A DNA stretch of 64,000 nucleotides, from the NCBI GenBank assembly GCA_050273025.1, contig CP158635.1, positions 20,150,001 through 20,214,000 of the forward strand. Reading direction: 5' to 3'. Shown piece by piece: positions 55,290-64,000 of the stretch; positions within the stretch are counted from its first letter, which is position 1; every line of letters begins with the position of its first letter. Both the position numbers and the translations under genes were made by a program. The notes below the pieces were generated by a model that was not told the origin of the DNA, did not search any database, and was given only the letters and a program-made list of their open reading frames with translations. The DNA is from Cenococcum geophilum. Lineage: Eukaryota.

Positions 55290-56497
55290 TTAGATGTTGA
55301 AACCGCCGTGCTTCGCAGCCTCCACAAACCGCCAGAGTCCAGCCTCTTCAGCGGCTTTCCGTACTGATGCCACTTCATCTAAGTTAACAGCTCTGTTTAT
55401 ATCCCCATACCTCACTTTGGCCTTGACTGTCTTAGAAGCTTTTATGCCTCCGCGTGATGGTTTTCCCACATGTGCCCGAGGAAAATACTGTTCCATTATA
55501 TGAACCATGGTATCCAGAGAAACATTCCCTGCGAGCCATTTTACAATTTCTCTGCCTTCATCTTCTTTTCCAGGCATTACCAAGTGTCGAACTAGTACAC
55601 CTTTCTTCGCGATGCCATCCGCAGTAAAACAGAGATCGCCAACCTGCGCATGCATTGCCTTGATACTTTCCATCGCCGTTTCTGTATAGTTATCCGCCTT
55701 CAGGAGCCGCCTGGACGTTTCAGTGTTCCACACCTTAAAGTCTGGTAAGTAAATGTCTACAAGACCATCTAAAAGTTTCAAGCTTTCGAGAGAATCAAAA
55801 GAGGATGTGTTGTATATGATGGGCAATCTGAGGCCTAGTTCCCGGGCATGAAGGATAGACAGTGCGACTTGAGGGACGACGTGTTCGGGAGTGACGAGGT
55901 TGATATTATGCACTCGGCCCACCTCTTGTAATTTCATGTACCACTCTGCAAGCTCCTCGGGAGTAAGGTCGAACCCGTTTCGCTGATGTGCAATGTCATG
56001 GTTTTGACAAAAGACACATCGCAGGTTACAGCCGGAAAAGAAGACGCTGCCAGAGCCGTTGTGTCCTTGAATGCATGGTTCTATACATTGCTATAGGTTA
56101 ACGAGTCAAATTCCGATTATGCTGTATTTGATTGAAGAACGTGTTGGCTATTGAGGAATAATGTTCAAATACACGCCTCACCTTCCCCAAAGTGCGGAGC
56201 TATCGTATTGACCTTGACTGTTTCAGCACCGATGAGACACACTCCTGTCTTCTCGTATCTGTTCACACCGCACAGTCTTGGGCAAAGATTACAATTGCGC
56301 AAATGGGCGTAAGCTTCAGACCTCTTCTTTGCTGCGTCGATGGAGGATATTAGATGATGGCGGGGAATGTAGCGGTCGAGGAGGAACGGAGGGGCAAGGT
56401 GGAGCCAGCGCGAGGAGGGTTGTGGCTGCCGTATGGAGGTGGGGATTGATCGTTGGAAGGGCCTCTTTGGGAGGGAGGACGGGAATGATTTGGGCAT
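55290..56497 (-). CDS. Radical SAM protein, PflX/PFL-activating-enzyme-like family, 368 aa; exons 56497-56182 and 56080-55290
   Basis: ATG at 56497; GT..AG intron 56181-56081; spliced frame gives CNLCPRLC, PHFGEEPCI, CNLRCVFC (CxxxCxxC), NINLVTP, DIYLPDFK, LVRHLVMPG; 1107 nt open, non-RIPed composition. Confidence 0.92.
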
Positions 56498-56859
56498 TGC
56501 CGGTCTACGTGGTCGCGCATCGCAAGAGCCCAGTGTCGATCTAACACTCTTATTGTGGTTTGCAACTGTCGTTTTCAAAATATCGGTAAAAATCGCTAAG
56601 CCGCACGACCTGTATTACCCCAATCAAAAGAATCCTTGGCATGCGGATTTCCAAATTTTGCACCCAAACTCACGTGTAAAACCGTAAGACAACTAACCCA
56701 TTTCCATGTTAAACGCGCCTTATTATCGATATAACGTCCCTATTATTAGTTAGTAAGTTAAAGCTAACATTATTCTACTATTTATTCTATTTTAATGTGT
56801 TTTCTAATATTATAGTATCTTATACTAGGAGGAAATCCAATCTACCACCTCGCTACGCG

Positions 56860-56920
56860 AGGTGGCGTCTCGCTGTCTCGACTCAGGTGGCCTTTCGCTG
56901 TTTTAACTTAGGTGGCCTTT
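56860..56920 (+). repeat. 25-bp tandem repeat (~2.4 units), overlapping a 21-bp hairpin at 56845-56865
   Basis: AGGTGGC starts at 56860, 56885 and 56910; hairpin CCACCTCGC-TAC-GCGAGGTGG. Confidence 0.7.
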
Positions 56921-56921
56921 A

Positions 56922-57406
56922 CAGTGATGTGCACGACCAGCTTCCCCTTTAGCGAGTTGCAGATTCGGTACGCGCATCCAATTTCGCCTGGTTGCCACCA
57001 GCTGTACATCGTAATTGTAGCGAGCGGCTGTGGCTGCACGCAAGGACCTTTTTGGTTGCCCTGGAGAATCGCCTTGGTTGGCCAGGAGAACCAAATCGAA
57101 GACGACGCTTCCTTTTCTCCCCCTTAACTATGCCTCCATTATGCCCGCAAAAACGCGAATACAACGCTGTCTCTGCAGAGAGGTTGACGAAATTTGGCAA
57201 TATCGTACGGGTGGAAGCCTCACGATATTTGACAAAGATCACGACACTGCGGAGGAAGGCCGCCAGAAGTAACGTTCTTGTAGCCAAGCATACGGCTTCG
57301 CTACAATTACTATGTACAGCTGGTGGCAACCAGGCGAAATTGGATGCGCGTACCGAATCTGCAACTCGCTAAAGGGGGGGGTGAAGCTGGTCGTGCACAT
57401 CAATAG
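56922..57406 (-). mobile_element. 485-bp Tc1/mariner-type MITE, un-RIPed
   Basis: ~100-bp TIRs (56925-57023 vs 57298-57402), TA at 56920-21 and 57407-08, CAGTG terminus; 57199-57406 is homologous to the start of the Tc1-like element at 63127-63358. Confidence 0.8.
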
Positions 57407-57407
57407 T

Positions 57408-60263
57408 ATGTCCACGGTTCGATTTGTATGGCTGAATCAGCCGCTGAGTCACGATTTGGCAGGCAGGAGGCCCGTGCGCTCAGTGGCATGTGGATGTTAC
57501 CCCATGTCCACGGTCGATCTTCGATCGCCAGCAACGCCGCAGCAACGTCGCGCTCTTAATACCCGTCAAGCGCTATGCGTAGAGCTGTCTAAGGGCTCTC
57601 TGCTCGCACTAGGATAGTAAGAATTGGCCATAGGTTAATAGAGATATTTACGTTTTAAATTAGGCGCCGCTATTATATAAGTACCCTACTAAACTTATAC
57701 CACACTAAAATAAGCCCCTAAGGGGCTATAGATAAAGGCTTTAAGAGAACTCCTTAGAAGTTAGATATATATACTATTTTAAAGCTTTTCTACCCGCTTA
57801 AAGCCGTTTATAAAGCTAATCTAGCAAGCACTATATCTACTCCTACTGTTAATTAATCTGCTATATAGCCGCTTTCTTACTAATCCTCTAGGCCTACGCG
57901 ACCCGCTTAATCTCCTTAATAACCTTAAGCCGTAGGGAGTACTATTAGAGCTTATTTTGCCAGCTAGCCCGCTATCTACTACCTTATTTAGAATTTAGCG
58001 CTACTATAGAAGGATTACCTCTAAGCCCTTTAGTCTATTTACGCTAAAGGGCCTATACGGACTTTACTGTACGGCATATACAATATACAGGCGGCTACTT
58101 AGGCGGCTGCTTAGGCTTAGGCCCTTACTGCGGCTATAGCTATAGCTATAGCTACAGCAGCGCTAGCGAAGGGGAAGCTATAGCGCTTATCTGGGCCGAT
58201 ATATTCTAGCTTAATTCCGCGATAGATAGAGGCGCTAATAGACGTGCCGTTAGTAGATATGCTATTAGTAGGTATACCGTTAAACGCGAATATATAGATG
58301 CCGAAGGGACCTTAAGCTAAAAGATAAGGCTACTAAATGTAAGCAATTAAAGCTATAAAGACTGCGCCTACTAGGACTCGGCTATACGGTTAAATAACGC
58401 CTATAGCTTACGTGCTTAGGCGTCTATAGTCTTTAGGCGGTCTGTAATAGCTAGTACGGCCTAGTAGAGTATTAATAGCTAGCTAGGGCCTTCTTCCTCC
58501 TACTATAGGTAGGCTTTAACCTTCCGCGCGAAGGGTAGATAGGCCTTATACTAAAAGACTAAGTAGTTCTATATAGGGCTACTTAGGAATATCTTACGGA
58601 GGACTACTAAGTTCTATAGGATAACCTCCTAGAGATAAAATAGGAGGTTTATAGCGCCTATAGCCGCAAGGTTGTTAATCTAGCCGACCTAAGGGCTAAA
58701 CTAACCCTTTTAGACGTCTAGCTCTAGCTAGATTATTAATAGTAGTATATTAGGGGGGGCGACGCTTGCCCTATAAATCTTAAAGCAGCCTATCTACGGC
58801 GAATGGCCGGCTATTATCCGTATAAACTCCCGCGGCAGCGAGTTTAAGTAATAGCCGACTATCTACTTCTAGTTCTACCTACTAGCGCGTTTAATCTAGT
58901 CCTTACTAACCCCTTTTAGCTCCGCTATCTTAGCGCTAGCGCTTTACTTAATATAGGTCTTCTTCTATAAGAAGACGCCGATAGCCTAAAATGCCTTAGT
59001 AACCTACTCCCGCTGCGAGTTATATAAGAAGGCCGTTTTATAGTTTCTAGCGCTGCTCTTAATTAGGCGGATATTATACTACACTAACCGCTTACTAAAG
59101 TCTAGGAATAGCTCGTTGCTAAGGTCCTAGCGGTATAGGAGGTAAAAAGCTAGCCTACTAAGTATATAAATGAGTGGCTTCTTATTACGTAGAGCTCTAA
59201 TAGTCTTAAGGCGGCTATACTAGTTCTACTTACCGGCGCGTGTAGTAAATATTAGGGGTATATAGCGCGTAGGACCTTTTCCCTTAAACTTAAAGGTAAA
59301 TAAGTCTAAGATCTTAGCGGAGCGCCTATTGCCGCCGTAGGTAAGTATATAGTGGCCTAGTAGGATATCTATAAGCGTGTAAAGGTAGTATTCTAGTAAG
59401 GAGTTTCTGCGGGCCTATAGCTCGCGGCAAACGCTTTTAAACTTATCCTCTATATATCCGTTAAGCAGTATATTTCTACCCTTATCTACAAACTACTCCT
59501 TTTTCTACTACGCGTCCCTCTATTATAGAATCTTTAGGTAATCCCTAATATTATCCTCCCGCGGGGACTAGTGGCTATTTATCCCTATACCCTTCTACGT
59601 CTAGTAAAGGTCTATTAGGGTAGTAATATAGCTATAAACTAAGCGTTAGGAGAGCCGCGTCTCGTCCTAAGGTATATTATCGCTAGCCTTACGGCTTTTT
59701 CCTTTTAGTAGCTAGCCTGTAACCTCCTTAATAAGGAAAAAAAGTAGCTTCTCTTCCGTAATAGTATCGCCGTTATAATACTGCTTTTGCTTATAAAAGG
59801 CCTAGAAAGACACGCGTTAGTTATAAGTATACTACTCTGTAAAGCACCTACCTACTTACCTTAAACTTTTTCTACTTTAGCTTATAATTTAGAGACGTGT
59901 TTTTAGGTTTCTTGGAATATATAAGGGTAAGAATACTCTACGCGTTAGCGCGTAGTTTGGTATTATTTATAACGTTAATCTTTACGCAACTAATTAACGG
60001 CATTTTTAAGATATATAGGACGCTACTAGAGAAGCTACGCTATAAGGGGGGGTTCCTATTTTCCTATATACGCAGATATAGACTAGGGAGAAGAGGTAGA
60101 GAAAGCATACCTACCGGATAAGTAATCTTACCGTATAGGGTAAATAAACGGGCGTATGGCTAGGCTAATAGGCTAATAGTACACGCGTATTAGCGACTCG
60201 ATTAGTAGGGGTAAAGACATTTAAAGATGTCTACGGCTTGGCTGTAGGCTCGGCCGTAAACAT
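57408..60263 (-). mobile_element. Crypton (tyrosine-recombinase DNA transposon), left copy, RIPed
   Basis: Mirror image of 60270-63125. Confidence 0.88.
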
Positions 60264-60269
60264 CCGTAA

Positions 60270-63125
60270 ATGTCCACGGCCGAGCCTGCAGCCAAGCTGT
60301 GGACATCTTTAAATGTCTTTACCCCTACTAATTGAGTCGCTGATGCGCGCGTACTATTAGCCTATTGGCCCAGCCATATACCCATTTATTTACCCTATAT
60401 AGTAAGGTCACTTATCTAGTAGGTATACTTTCTCTACCTTTCCTCCTTAGTTTATATCTGCGTATATAGGAAAATAGGAACCCCCCCTTATAGCGCAGCT
60501 TCTCTAGCAGCGTCCTATATATCTTAAAAATACCATTAATTAGTTACGTAAAGATTAATATTATAAATAATACTAAACTACGCGCTAACGCGTAAAGTAT
60601 TCTTACCTTTATATGTTTTAAGAGACCTAAAAATACGTCTTTAAATTATAAGCTAAAGTAGAAAGAGTTTAAGGTAAGTAGGTAGGTGCTTTACGGAGTA
60701 GTATACTTATAACTAACGCGCGTTTTTCTAAGCCTTTTATAAGTAGAAGTAGTACTATAACAGCGATACCGTTATAGAAGAGAAGCTACTTCTTTTTCTT
60801 ATTAAGGAGGTTATAGGCCGGCTATTAAAAGGAAAAAGCCGTAAGGCTAGTAATAATGTGCCCTAAGATAAGACGCGGCTCTCCTAGCGCTTAGTTCGCG
60901 GCTATATTACTACCTTAATAGACCTTTACTAGACGTAGAAGGGTATAGGGATAAACAGCCACTAGTCCCCGCGGGAGGATAATATTAGGGATTATTTAAA
61001 GGTTCTATAACGGAGGGACGCGTAGTAGGAAAAGGAGTAATTTATAAATAAAGGTAGAAATACGCTACTTAACGGATATATAGAGGACGAGTTTAAGAGC
61101 GTCTACCGCGAGCTATAGGCCCATAGAGACTTCTTACTAGAATACTACCTCCGTACGCTTATAGATATCCTATTAGGCTACTATATACTTACCTATAGCG
61201 GCAATAGGCACTCTACCGAGATCTTAAACCTATTTACCTTTAAGTTTAAGGGGGAAGGTCCTACGCGCTATATACCCCTAATATTTACTATACGCGCTAG
61301 TAAGCAGAACTAGTATAGCCGCCTTAAGACTATTAGAGCTCTACGTAATAAGAAGCCACTCGTTTATATACTTAGCGGGCTAGCTTTCTACCTTTTATAC
61401 CGCTAGGACCTTAGCAACAAGCCGTTTCTAGACTTTAGTAAGCGGTTAGTGTAGTATAATATCCGCCTAATTAAGAGCAGCGCTAGGGACCGTAAGATGG
61501 CCTTCTTATATAACTTGCAGCGGAAGTAGGTTACTAAGGTATTCTAGGCCGTCGGCGTCTTCTTATAGAAGAAAACCTATATTAGGCAAAGCGCTAGCGC
61601 TAAGATAGCGGAGCTAAAAGGGGTTAGTAAGGACTAGATTAAACGCGCTAGCAGGTAGAACTAGGAGTAAATAGTTAGCTACTATTTAAACTCGTTGCCA
61701 TAGGAGTTTATGCGGATAATAGCCGGCTATTTGCCGTAGATAGGCTGCTTTAAGATTTATAGGGTAAGCGTTGCCCCCCCTAATATACTACTGTTAACGA
61801 TCTAGCTAGAGCTGGACGTCTAAAAGGGTTAGTTTAGCTTTTAGGTCGGTTAGGTTAATAACCTTACGGCTATAGGCGCTATAAACCTCCTGTTTTATCT
61901 CTAGGAGATTATCCTATAGGACTTAGTAGTCCTCCGCGAGATATTTCTAAGCAGCCCTATATAGAACCACCTGGTCTTCTAGTATAAGGCCTATCTACCC
62001 TTTATATAGAAGGTTAAAGCCTACCTATAGTAGGAGGAAGAAGGCCCTAGCTAGCTATTAATACTCTACTAGGCCGTGCCGGCTATCGCGGACCGCCTAA
62101 AGACTATAGACGCCTAAGCACGCGAGCTATAGGCGTCGTTTAACCGTATAGCCGAGTCCTAGTAGGCGCAGTCTTCGTAGCTTTAATTGCTTACATCTAG
62201 CAGCCTTACCTTTCGGCTTAAGGTCCCTTTGGCATCTATATATTCGCGTCTAACGGCATACCTACTAATAGTACGTCTACCGACGGTATATCTACTAGTG
62301 CCTCTATCTATTACGGAATTAAATTAGAATATATCGGCCTAGGTAAGCGCTATAGCTTCCCCTTCGCTAGCGCCGCCGCAGCTATAGCTATAGCTATAGC
62401 CGTAGTAAGGGCCTAAGCCTAAGTAGCCGCCTAAGTAGCCGCCTGTATATTATATATGCTATATAATAAAGTCCGTATAGGCCCTTTGGCGCGAGTAGAC
62501 TAAAGGGCTTAAAGGTAATCCTTTTATAGTAGCGCTAGATTCTAAATAGGGTAGTAGATAGCGGGCTAGCCGGCAGAACAAGCTCTAATAGTACTCCCTA
62601 CAGCTTAAGGTTATTAAGGAGATTAGGTAGGTTGCGTAGGCCTAAAGGGTTAGCGAGAAAGCGGCTATATAGTAGGTTAATTAACAGCAGAAGTAGATAT
62701 AGTGCTCGCTAGATTAGCTTTATAAACGGCTTTAAGCGGGTAAAAAAGCTTTAAAATAGTATATATATCTAACTTCTAAAGAGTCCTCTTAAAGCCTTTA
62801 TCTATAGCCCCTTAGGGGCTTATTTTAGTGCGGTATAAGTTTAGTAGGGTACTTATATAATAGCGGCGCCTAATCTAAAATATAAATATCTCTATTAACC
62901 TATAGCCAATTCTTACTATCCTAGTGCGAGTAGAGAGCCCTCGGATAGCTCTACGTATAGCGCTTAACAGGTATTAAGAGCGCGATGTTGCTACGGCGTT
63001 ACTAGCAATTAAAGATCGACCGTGGATATAGGGTAATATCTATATACTACTGAGCGCACGGGCCTCCTGCCTGCCAAATTATGACTTAGCGGCTGATTTA
63101 GCCATATAAATCGAACCGTAGATAT
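60270..63125 (+). mobile_element. Crypton (CryptonF-like; Ndc10-type YR domain + Gcr1_C), right copy, RIPed; coding region ~60490-62800
   Basis: Degenerate GNRHSTEILNL (~61200), SKQN*YSR (~61300), KKTYIRQS for the HxxR motif (~61570), ASR*N...YY (~61647-61685); Gcr1_C-like ALWRE*TKGL...*GSR*R (~62480-62565); GTAAGT intron at ~60674. Confidence 0.88.
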
Positions 63126-63126
63126 A

Positions 63127-64000
63127 CTATTAATGTTTACAACTAGCTTCTACCCCCCCCCCAGGCGAGCTTAGATTTTTTTTACGCCATTTAATTTCGC
63201 TTAATTACTACTAACTGTATATAGTAACCGTAGCGAAGCCGTATGCTTGGCTGTAAGAACCCCCTAATCCTGGCGAACTTAAAGCTATTCGCGATCGGCT
63301 TCCCTCCGCAGTATCGTAATCTTTATTAAATATCGTAAGGTTTCTACCCGTACTATATTCGTAATATAGCTCCGCAAATAGGCCTATATTAGCACGCCCT
63401 AATTAAGGATCTTCTTTAACTTAGAGTAACTTGAGCAGAGTGTGCCTTAGCTGCTAGTTATACACCCTAATTAATTACCGCGATTAAGAGGAACTTACGT
63501 ATATTTAGATCAACTTAGGCGCCTTTAAACAGTAAGGGGGGGCAGTTTTTACTAAGCAATCGGATACTCGTGGTAATATTAATGCGGCTAGATAAGAAGC
63601 CAACTCTCTTTAGCAATAAGATATAGTGGTTAATCTACAACACGTTTAATCTCGTAGTTAGCCGCTATATAATATTTTAAAAGCTCTACTTAGCTGGCTA
63701 AACAAGAAAGCGGGTAAGCCAATTAGATCCTCTATAGATAGAGCTTAAAGAGTAGCTTATATAAAGAAGTGTTTCTAGGTAGCCCTCAAACAAAGCGCTT
63801 ACAATCGCGATATATATTTCGCCATTATATTATAGTATACCGCCAATTAGCTTATATTTATAGATAAGTTAAGTATAAATTCAAAGACAGGTGTATAGAA
63901 GACTAGTTAGGCTCCCTCTAGTATTGCACCAATCCTATATACATTATACAATCGGGCTAAGAGGAGGCTTAATATATTACCTACGTATACAATTAACGGC
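63127..64000 (+). mobile_element. Tc1/IS630-type DDE transposon, 5' part, RIPed; runs off the window
   Basis: Begins after TA with a TIR homologous to the MITE; frame AN*LIFIDKLS...KTS*APSSIAP...RLNILPTYTING (63842-64000) fits QLVFVDES...GWAP...ILPAYT. Confidence 0.75.

What the first reader, a model, noticed from the sequence alone, without database searches (positions are those of the whole stretch)
57408..63125. Head-to-head Crypton dimer forming a 5.7-kb palindrome with a 6-bp centre
Seen: two 2856-bp copies mirror each other around CCGTAA (60264-60269). The checked anchor pairs (57408/63125, 57504/63029, 60263/60270) share one coordinate sum, so there is no net indel, and the differences I compared are RIP-type transitions. 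Established: Cryptons encode tyrosine recombinases and are thought to move through circles, which would more simply give head-to-tail junctions. Inference: this is an inverted-dimer product of the recombinase (end-to-end recombination or a hairpin intermediate), or the palindrome itself is the mobile unit.
Basis: partly seen in the sequence, partly recalled or inferred. Interest (0 to 1): 0.85.

Follow-up and report, generated by a model that had tools for sequence, protein, structure and literature searches.

The report
Inverted Crypton pair joined at recombinase site
Two mutated copies of a fungal Crypton transposon are fused head-to-head exactly at a short conserved inverted-repeat site inside the element, which looks like a fossil of the element's own recombinase joining two copies the wrong way round.

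Summary
The palindrome is real. The arms 57408-60263 and 60270-63125 (2856 bp each) differ at 294 positions. All 294 are transitions, with no indel. Each arm carries a RIP-wrecked ORF with NDC10_II + GCR1_C, the CryptonF architecture, read outward from the centre.

The arms are not whole elements. Thirty metagenome loci give a 2934-bp monomer, and both window arms lack its first 72 bp.

The centre is still not a random break. It falls on a conserved internal site, CCGTCGACAT-TCGCGG-ATGTCCACGG, present in 34 of 34 other copies. The window has the right half-site on both sides of that spacer, which carries two RIP-type changes.

The DNA outside the arms belongs to two different repeat subfamilies. 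So two separate copies were joined, rather than one copy folding back.

Best reading (0.58): the Crypton tyrosine recombinase recombined two inverted copies in the wrong alignment across a near-palindromic spacer. None of the 34 other copies is head-to-head and two loci hold head-to-tail arrays, so the palindrome is not the mobile unit. No read spanning the centre could be inspected.

The parts
55290..56614 (-). Neighbouring host gene (context only), of normal base composition. ORF 55290-56090 has a Radical_SAM domain.
   Evidence: ORF list. Pfam Radical_SAM E 2.7e-13. Single-copy depth in the runs.
56926..57401 (.). 'A-element': a 476-bp repeat with ~112-bp terminal inverted repeats (56912-57023 vs 57298-57415). 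Its ends (ATGTGCACGA) resemble the Crypton terminal motif. It is flanked by TACAGT (56920-56925) and AATAGT (57402-57407). It forms the left flank of the palindrome.
   Evidence: Inverted repeats I2 and I5 and the self-blast. A 94.5% copy lies in L023. Summed contig depth is 200-400x the single-copy bin.
57408..60263 (-). Left Crypton copy, monomer positions 79-2934. Its 3' end is at 57408 and its first 72 bp are missing. The RIP-wrecked ORF spans about 59939-57777, with NDC10_II at 59588-58539 and GCR1_C at 58079-57855.
   Evidence: Pfam on P0005. Mapping to the L007 monomer. Alignment to intact homologues, where the X positions fall on W/Q.
60254..60279 (.). Palindrome centre: CCGTAAACAT-CCGTAA-ATGTCCACGG. 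On the minus strand it reads CCGTGGACAT-TTACGG-ATGTTTACGG. That is right half-site (inverted) + natural spacer TCGCGG with CpG changed to TpA + right half-site.
   Evidence: Site table of the window and 34 other copies. Sequence read.
60264..60269 (.). The 6-bp 'centre'. It corresponds to the spacer of the element's internal site, not to filler or an element end.
60270..63125 (+). Right Crypton copy, monomer positions 79-2934, mirror of the left copy. Its ORF remnant spans about 60594-62756.
   Evidence: tblastn of P0005 matches 60450-62756 at 74.6%. Monomer mapping.
63126..63131 (+). Hexamer ACTATT after the Crypton 3' end, mirrored as AATAGT at 57402-57407. The same 6 bp separates units in head-to-tail arrays elsewhere.
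   Evidence: L002, L019.
63132..64000 (.). 'B-element': a longer relative of the A-element that shares only its terminal ~230 bp. It forms the right flank and runs off the window.
   Evidence: Matches to L023 814-1624 and L026 2311-3156. Subfamily alignment.

Best explanation
Two separate copies of one CryptonF family once lay in inverted, head-to-head orientation. Each had its 3' end against a member of an abundant A/B repeat family.

The Crypton tyrosine recombinase then recombined their internal sites. Each site, called site I here, consists of a left arm (CCGTCGACAT), a 6-bp spacer (TCGCGG) and a right arm (ATGTCCACGG), at monomer positions 63-88. The two sites were aligned the wrong way round. 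That is possible because the arms are near-perfect inverted repeats and the spacer is nearly palindromic (central CGCG); in 11 of 34 copies it is the perfect palindrome TCGCGA.

The product joins the two right half-sites across one spacer. It removes both 72-bp 5' ends together with whatever lay between the copies. RIP then mutated both arms independently.

Shown: the structure, the family, the monomer ends, the identity of the centre with site I, and the unrelated flanks. Inferred: that the recombinase did the joining, and that the two copies were neighbours on one chromosome.
For: (1) The centre equals site I. All 34 of 34 non-window copies carry left arm, spacer and right arm. The window has the inverted right arm, the spacer and the right arm.

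(2) Both window arms are of the right-arm type. The diagnostic base is C (29 copies) or T (5 copies) in the left arm of every other copy, never G or A. The window shows G on one side and A, a RIP change from G, on the other.

(3) The 6-bp centre read on the minus strand is TTACGG. That is TCGCGG with a CpG-to-TpA change, a change common between the arms. The breakpoints in both copies therefore lie exactly at the arm/spacer borders, where tyrosine recombinases cut (Kojima & Jurka, PMC3212892, passages: inverted repeats of 11-13 bp around 6-8 bp).

(4) The flanks are different elements. The body has 0 transversions and 0 gaps in 2856 bp. The flank has 11 transversions and 5 gaps in about 209 bp. 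The left flank matches the A subfamily and the right flank the B subfamily.

(5) The arms share RIP sites hardly more with each other than with the unrelated copy L007: observed/expected ratio 2.46 against 2.32 and 2.20. They were therefore near-identical, unmutated copies when RIP began.

(6) Symmetric spacers allow recombination in either orientation (PMC4691749, passages on loxPsym).

(7) Active CryptonF elements cause inversions and translocations with target motifs at the breakpoints in Chlamydomonas (PMC9977147, passages).
Against: This is a single instance: 0 of 34 other copies show the junction. No reciprocal product (left arm - spacer - inverted left arm) was seen in the window or the 30 loci.

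No read or contig across the centre could be inspected.

The window's subfamily has the spacer TCGCGG. In the inverted alignment this mismatches at both outer positions, which could hinder strand exchange.

Site I has no demonstrated function, and its binding or cleavage by the protein is untested.

The centre sequence alone also fits a fold-back at the same short inverted repeat if the one mismatch was repaired. The case against that rival rests mainly on the flanks.

The loci come from metagenomes and may be from related fungi rather than this genome.
Confidence: 0.58

Rival explanations
1. Fold-back without the recombinase. A break near the 5' end of one resident copy, or a replication template switch, let the natural 10-bp inverted repeat or the CGCG in its spacer prime an inverted duplication. 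One flank was later replaced.
For: The centre lies on a natural 26-bp inverted repeat with a palindromic CGCG core, the kind of sequence that seeds fold-back palindromes (recalled general knowledge). The centre is compatible with a perfect palindrome, CCGCGG, plus three RIP transitions.
Against: Intrastrand annealing of the left and right arms predicts one left-type arm, yet both are right-type; one mismatch repair could hide this. A single-copy fold-back also duplicates the flank. Here the flanks belong to different subfamilies, with 11 transversions and 5 gaps in about 209 bp against 0 and 0 in the 2856-bp body. A second event exactly at the Crypton 3' end would be needed.
Confidence: 0.17
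2. Recombinase-made hairpin or sister-chromatid fusion. The recombinase cut both strands at site I of one copy and joined them into a hairpin, as telomere resolvases do, or joined sister chromatids. Replication then gave the palindrome, followed by a second rearrangement of one flank.
For: This gives exactly the inverted right arm, the spacer and the right arm, with breakpoints at the arm/spacer borders. The mechanism is recalled from telomere resolvases and was not tested here.
Against: It predicts mirror symmetry far beyond the element. Clean symmetry stops at the Crypton 3' ends, and the flanks are different subfamilies.
Confidence: 0.08
3. Assembly artefact: a false join or a chimeric long read.
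For: No spanning read was inspected. The family is highly repeated: summed contig depth is roughly 100x the single-copy bin, which by the tool's own caution is not a copy number. High repetition invites misassembly.
Against: Chimeric fold-back reads give identical arms, whereas these differ at 294 of 2856 sites, all transitions. A false join of two copies would not land symmetrically, to the base, on the borders of a 6-bp spacer.
Confidence: 0.05
4. The palindrome itself is a mobile unit: an inverted-dimer transposon.
For: Both outer ends are genuine Crypton 3' ends followed by the same hexamer in mirror image.
Against: None of 34 other copies has the head-to-head junction, and each of the 30 loci holds a single pattern match. 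Head-to-tail arrays are what is seen.
Confidence: 0.02

Closest known systems
CryptonF DNA transposons of fungi (Goodwin et al. 2003, recalled; Kojima & Jurka 2011, PMC3212892, passages read)
   Same: A single ORF with a tyrosine-recombinase-like core plus a GCR1_C domain. Size about 3 kb. Six base pairs at the unit junctions. Multi-copy.
   Different: This family has recognisable short, imperfect terminal inverted repeats built on a 10-mer. It also has subterminal full sites (two inverted arms plus a 6-bp spacer) near both ends. The literature passages read describe Cryptons as lacking TIRs. Here two copies are fused head-to-head with 72 bp missing from each.
Crypton-mediated rearrangements in Chlamydomonas mutation-accumulation lines (PMC9977147, passages read)
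   Same: A CryptonF element, with chromosomal rearrangements whose breakpoints lie at the element's recombination motifs. Those authors suggest recombinase action.
   Different: Those events are inversions and translocations between element ends or target motifs, observed live. This one is a fossil, RIP-mutated junction at an internal site that fuses two copies into a palindrome.
Orientation-independent recombination at symmetric-spacer sites (loxPsym/SCRaMbLE, PMC4691749, passages read)
   Same: Inverted arms plus a symmetric spacer allow either alignment, so sites in inverted orientation can give deletions.
   Different: That system is engineered Cre/lox. Here the site is natural, its spacer is only near-palindromic in this subfamily, and the enzyme is uncharacterised.
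Palindromes seeded by short inverted repeats after a double-strand break (recalled; no paper read here)
   Same: A large palindrome centred on a short natural inverted repeat.
   Different: That route keeps one arm of each type and mirrors the flank. Neither is seen here.

Membership tests
CryptonF transposon | Encodes a tyrosine-recombinase-type protein and no reverse transcriptase or DDE transposase | tested here: met
   Of six frames of the arm, only one has Pfam hits: NDC10_II at E 1.5e-43 and GCR1_C, nothing else. NDC10_II is the Pfam family of Cbf2/Ndc10, whose central part Kojima & Jurka relate to CryptonF recombinase domains (PMC3212892, passage).
CryptonF transposon | C-terminal GCR1_C DNA-binding domain | tested here: met
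   GCR1_C at E 2.6e-7 in the window copy and 1.1e-19 in homologue P0007. Of the 72 homologues, 71 carry both domains in the precomputed Pfam column and one (P0068) lists only NDC10_II.
CryptonF transposon | Catalytic residues of a tyrosine recombinase (R-H-R-Y) | tested here: inconclusive
   The 13-sequence alignment has conserved H-x-x-R, W and Y columns (THIGRS ... RWNQ ... GCYL). In the window copy the H is Y and the R is a stop. Assigning these columns to the catalytic set is by inspection only. The AlphaFold model is poor there (mean pLDDT 62.8). Foldseek gives Ndc10 at E 2e-4 and Cre only at E 0.28 or worse.
CryptonF transposon | Short (4-6 bp) direct repeats at the termini; no long terminal repeats | tested here: inconclusive
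   Exactly 6 bp (ACTATT) lies between units at 3 tandem junctions and after both window copies. The one simple insertion with both flanks visible (L007) has TACAGT and TACCTC, which are not a repeat. TACAGT precedes 10 of 26 complete 5' ends.
Core-type tyrosine-recombinase site (two inverted arms, 6-8 bp spacer) | Geometry and conservation | tested here: met
   10-bp arms matching at 9 of 10 positions, with a 6-bp spacer, conserved in 34 of 34 copies.
Core-type tyrosine-recombinase site (two inverted arms, 6-8 bp spacer) | Bound and cleaved by the element's recombinase | not testable with these tools
   Needs biochemistry.
Fold-back palindrome via a short inverted repeat | One arm of each type at the centre, and mirrored flanks | tested here: not met
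   Both arms are right-type. The flanks are different subfamilies.
RIP (repeat-induced point mutation) | Only C-to-T and G-to-A changes in duplicated DNA | tested here: met
   294 of 294 differences between the arms are transitions. The stops in the ORF fall on W and Q codons of homologues.

The most novel reading that the evidence does not exclude
The junction is a natural footprint of Crypton recombinase chemistry. It pinpoints a 26-bp site (10-bp inverted arms, 6-bp near-palindromic spacer) at which the enzyme can join two copies in either orientation. The family's sites are one outer half-site at each end, subterminal full sites near both ends, and a 6-bp unit junction. Together these would be the first concrete map of Crypton recombination substrates. 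The abundant A/B elements, with look-alike termini, would be non-autonomous passengers of the same enzyme.
Probability: 0.5. Interest if true: 0.65.

Novelty: new variant of a known kind. Interest (0 to 1): 0.5.

Why it matters
Cryptons are among the least understood eukaryotic DNA transposons. In the passages read, their ends are called hard to define (PMC3212892), and activity was first observed only in Chlamydomonas (PMC9977147).

This locus, together with 30 related loci, gives exact monomer ends, a repeated 10-bp candidate binding motif and a 6-bp unit junction. It also gives a conserved internal site at which two copies were fused. All of these can be synthesised and tested directly with a recombinase from an intact relative.

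It also shows how such an element can delete DNA and build a kilobase-scale palindrome in a fungal genome.

The event itself is a single dead, RIP-mutated relic. It has no evident effect on the neighbouring gene.

Tried and rejected
- **Whole genome:** none is held for this window, so genomic copies could not be collected directly.
- **Read laying:** the runs are kept as short Logan contigs. Only 32 of about 19,800 pieces and 24 of about 1,330 loose ends were listed. None bridges the centre, so presence or absence of the junction in the source strain or in other isolates could not be told. The lack of a listed bridging piece is not evidence.
- **Other Crypton copies in the window:** tblastn of the arm's protein found none.
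rejected, because 30 of 30 loci continue upstream of the position matching 60270.
- **Circle integrated in inverted orientation into a resident copy's internal site, or integration of an inverted-dimer circle:** rejected. Both predict the 72-bp 5' piece next to the left arm's outer end. An A-element is there instead, and monomer positions 1-64 occur nowhere in the window.
- **Shared RIP history of the arms:** no clear excess over an unrelated copy, so this is uninformative about duplication versus two insertions.
- **Intact ORFs among the 30 loci:** none found; all copies are RIP-mutated.
- **Structure prediction of homologue P0021:** low confidence. The Foldseek hits to Cre are not significant.
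- **PDB sequence search:** only weak Ndc10 hits.
- **Literature searches:** 'Crypton' with 'head-to-head' and with 'head-to-tail' listed nothing relevant by title or abstract. One search was too loosely framed to be useful.
- **Not consulted:** Additional file 1 of PMC3212892, which lists Crypton termini. It may bear on the terminal-repeat comparison.
Full report
**1.

The repeat finder reports inverted arms 57374-60263 and 60270-63159: 2890 nt, 90% complementary, 6 nt apart. Of the 301 differences, 298 are transitions.

Weaker mirror similarity continues outward to 57199 and 63359. The rest of the window (1-55000) is 26-40% G+C and holds no other copy of the element.

**2. The element is a Crypton.**

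I translated the six frames of the left arm with stops read as X. Only the frame running from the centre outward on the minus strand (P0005) has Pfam hits: NDC10_II at E 1.5e-43 and GCR1_C at E 2.6e-7. The same protein matches the right arm on the plus strand. The two genes therefore diverge from the centre, which is head-to-head.

A protein search returned 72 relatives. Of these, 71 carry both domains and one carries NDC10_II alone. The best is 65% identical, and one is from Chaetomium globosum, a species listed among CryptonF hosts in PMC3212892 (passages). In the alignment the X positions of the window copy fall on W and Q of intact relatives, as expected from RIP.

PMC3212892 (passages) defines CryptonF by a tyrosine recombinase plus GCR1_C. 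It also says the central part of Cbf2/Ndc10 resembles the CryptonF recombinase domain.

The direct check of the recombinase fold was weak. The AlphaFold model of P0021 has mean pLDDT 62.8. Foldseek finds Ndc10 at E 2e-4 but Cre only at E 0.28 or worse. The PDB sequence search finds only Ndc10 weakly.

**3. The family is abundant, and its true ends lie elsewhere.**

No genome is held for this window. Runs carrying the stretch were found and four were laid. They are short contigs, and summed depth over the element is roughly 100x that of the single-copy bin 56000-56533. By the tool's own caution this is not a copy number. One listed loose end (run X12, 3 contigs, just before 60269) showed a different sequence upstream of the right arm.

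A scan of metagenome contigs with 24 nt from the start of the right arm gave 30 loci with one match each. In 30 of 30 the 70 bp upstream of the match are the same conserved sequence. In 26 loci this sequence ends at a sharp 5' boundary beginning GGTGTTCACGG, beyond which the flanks differ. The hexamer TACAGT precedes the boundary in 10 of the 26.

A complete single insertion in L007 gives a 2934-bp monomer that ends in CCGTGGACAT. L002 holds two units and L019 three, arranged head-to-tail with exactly 6 bp (ACTATT) between them.

Mapped on this monomer, both window arms are positions 79-2934. Each lacks the first 72 bp, and positions 1-64 occur nowhere in the window.

**4. The centre is nevertheless not a random break.**

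All 34 non-window copies (30 loci plus 4 further tandem or partial copies) carry an inverted-repeat site at positions 63-88. Its parts are:
- left arm CCGTCGACAT,
- a 6-bp spacer: TCGCGG in 21 copies, TCGCGA in 11, other in 2,
- right arm ATGTCCACGG.

The window centre read on the minus strand is CCGTGGACAT-TTACGG-ATGTTTACGG. This is the inverted right arm, the natural spacer with a CpG-to-TpA change, and the right arm.

The base that tells the left arm from an inverted right arm is C (29 copies) or T (5 copies) in every other copy. In the window it is G on one side and A, a RIP change from G, on the other. Both copies are therefore broken exactly at an arm/spacer border of the same conserved site and share one spacer.

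The same 10-mer also forms both element ends and further subterminal sites near both ends, so the element has short imperfect terminal inverted repeats. This geometry matches the usual tyrosine-recombinase site described in PMC3212892 (passages).

**5. Two copies were joined; one copy did not fold back.**

Outside the Crypton 3' ends (57408 and 63125) the mirror similarity changes character: 33 transitions, 11 transversions and 5 gaps in about 209 bp, against 0 transversions and 0 gaps in the 2856-bp body.

The left flank is a 476-bp element with terminal inverted repeats (56926-57401). Its sequence, including the absence of a 22-bp segment, matches a copy in L023. The right flank matches a longer relative found in L023 and L026 that has this segment and then continues differently. 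Their similarity ends at 57199/63359 simply because the two subfamilies diverge there.

A fold-back, hairpin or sister fusion of a single copy would have duplicated its flank. That is not what is seen.

The arms share RIP-mutated sites hardly more with each other than with L007: observed/expected 2.46 against 2.32 and 2.20. RIP therefore acted on two near-identical, unmutated copies.

**6. Mechanism.**

The best-supported reading is recombination by the Crypton recombinase between the internal sites of two inverted copies, aligned the wrong way round. The near-symmetric arms and the near-palindromic spacer (central CGCG; perfectly palindromic TCGCGA in 11 of 34 copies) would permit this. Sites in inverted orientation then behave like direct repeats. 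The DNA between them, including both 72-bp 5' ends, is lost, and the two right half-sites are left around one spacer.

Two papers lend support. Symmetric spacers allow either alignment in Cre/loxPsym (PMC4691749, passages). Active CryptonF elements cause inversions and translocations with target motifs at the breakpoints in Chlamydomonas (PMC9977147, passages).

The recombinase's role is an inference. So is the assumption that the two copies were neighbours on one chromosome rather than on two chromosomes.

**7. What speaks against it.**

- It is one instance. None of the 34 other copies is head-to-head, and no reciprocal product was seen.
- The spacer of this subfamily would mismatch at its two outer positions in the inverted alignment.
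- The centre sequence alone also fits a fold-back at the same short inverted repeat if one mismatch was repaired, or a template switch at CGCG.
- No spanning read was seen.
- The 30 loci are from metagenomes and may be from related fungi.

A misassembly is unlikely. The arms differ at 294 sites, and the join is symmetric to the base at a 6-bp spacer.

**8. Verdict.**

The palindrome is real, and it is a head-to-head pair of 5'-truncated Crypton copies. It is not the mobile unit and not an end-to-end dimer. It is most likely a fossil of wrong-orientation site-specific recombination at a conserved internal site.

This is a new variant of a known kind, Crypton-mediated rearrangement. Its main value is that it exposes candidate recombination substrates of a poorly understood transposon class.

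Noticed in passing
window 56926-57401 (and L023 280-774): A 476-bp element with ~112-bp terminal inverted repeats. Its ends (ATGTGCACGA) resemble the Crypton terminal 10-mer. It is preceded by TACAGT, the same hexamer that precedes 10 of 26 Crypton 5' ends. Summed contig depth is 200-400x the single-copy bin, higher than the Crypton itself. It may be a non-autonomous partner of the Crypton recombinase.
   Followed up: partly
window 63132-64000; L023 814-1624; L026 2311-3156: A longer relative ('B') of that element, which shares only its terminal ~230 bp. In L026 the same end abuts a Crypton 5' end; in the window it abuts a Crypton 3' end.
   Followed up: partly
L002 1-4839; L019 3419-10520: Head-to-tail Crypton arrays of 2 and 3 units, with exactly 6 bp (ACTATT) between units. 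This is what integration of circles at the unit junction would give.
   Followed up: partly
L027 240-330: The first 24 bp of the Crypton are replaced by an inverted 43-bp copy of the element's 3' end, joined at a short shared GCTGAG stretch. This is another inversion-type rearrangement in the family.
   Followed up: no
L029 6923-7045: Only the first 123 bp of the element are present. Homology stops just after the spacer of a second internal site (CCGTGGACAT-ATTCGA-AT...), so this is another breakpoint at a motif/spacer border.
   Followed up: no
window 57402 -> 60087 (runs X1 and X9): One contig in each of the two runs joins 57402 (the end of the A-element) to 60087, skipping 2684 bp with 14 other letters between. 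It could be an internally deleted derivative or a different junction elsewhere in the genome. Unexplained.
   Followed up: no
window 57408-57570 vs 62963-63125: RIP is uneven. The last ~160 bp of the left copy and the whole A-element look unmutated (G+C about 47%), while the mirror part on the right is heavily mutated. Many arm-specific changes are CpG-to-TpA doublets.
   Followed up: partly
window 56850-56925: Three tandem ~25-bp units beginning AGGTGGC lie directly left of the A-element.
   Followed up: no
window 1-55000: A long AT-rich block (26-40% G+C) next to a normal-composition gene region (55-57 kb). The palindrome sits at this border.
   Followed up: no
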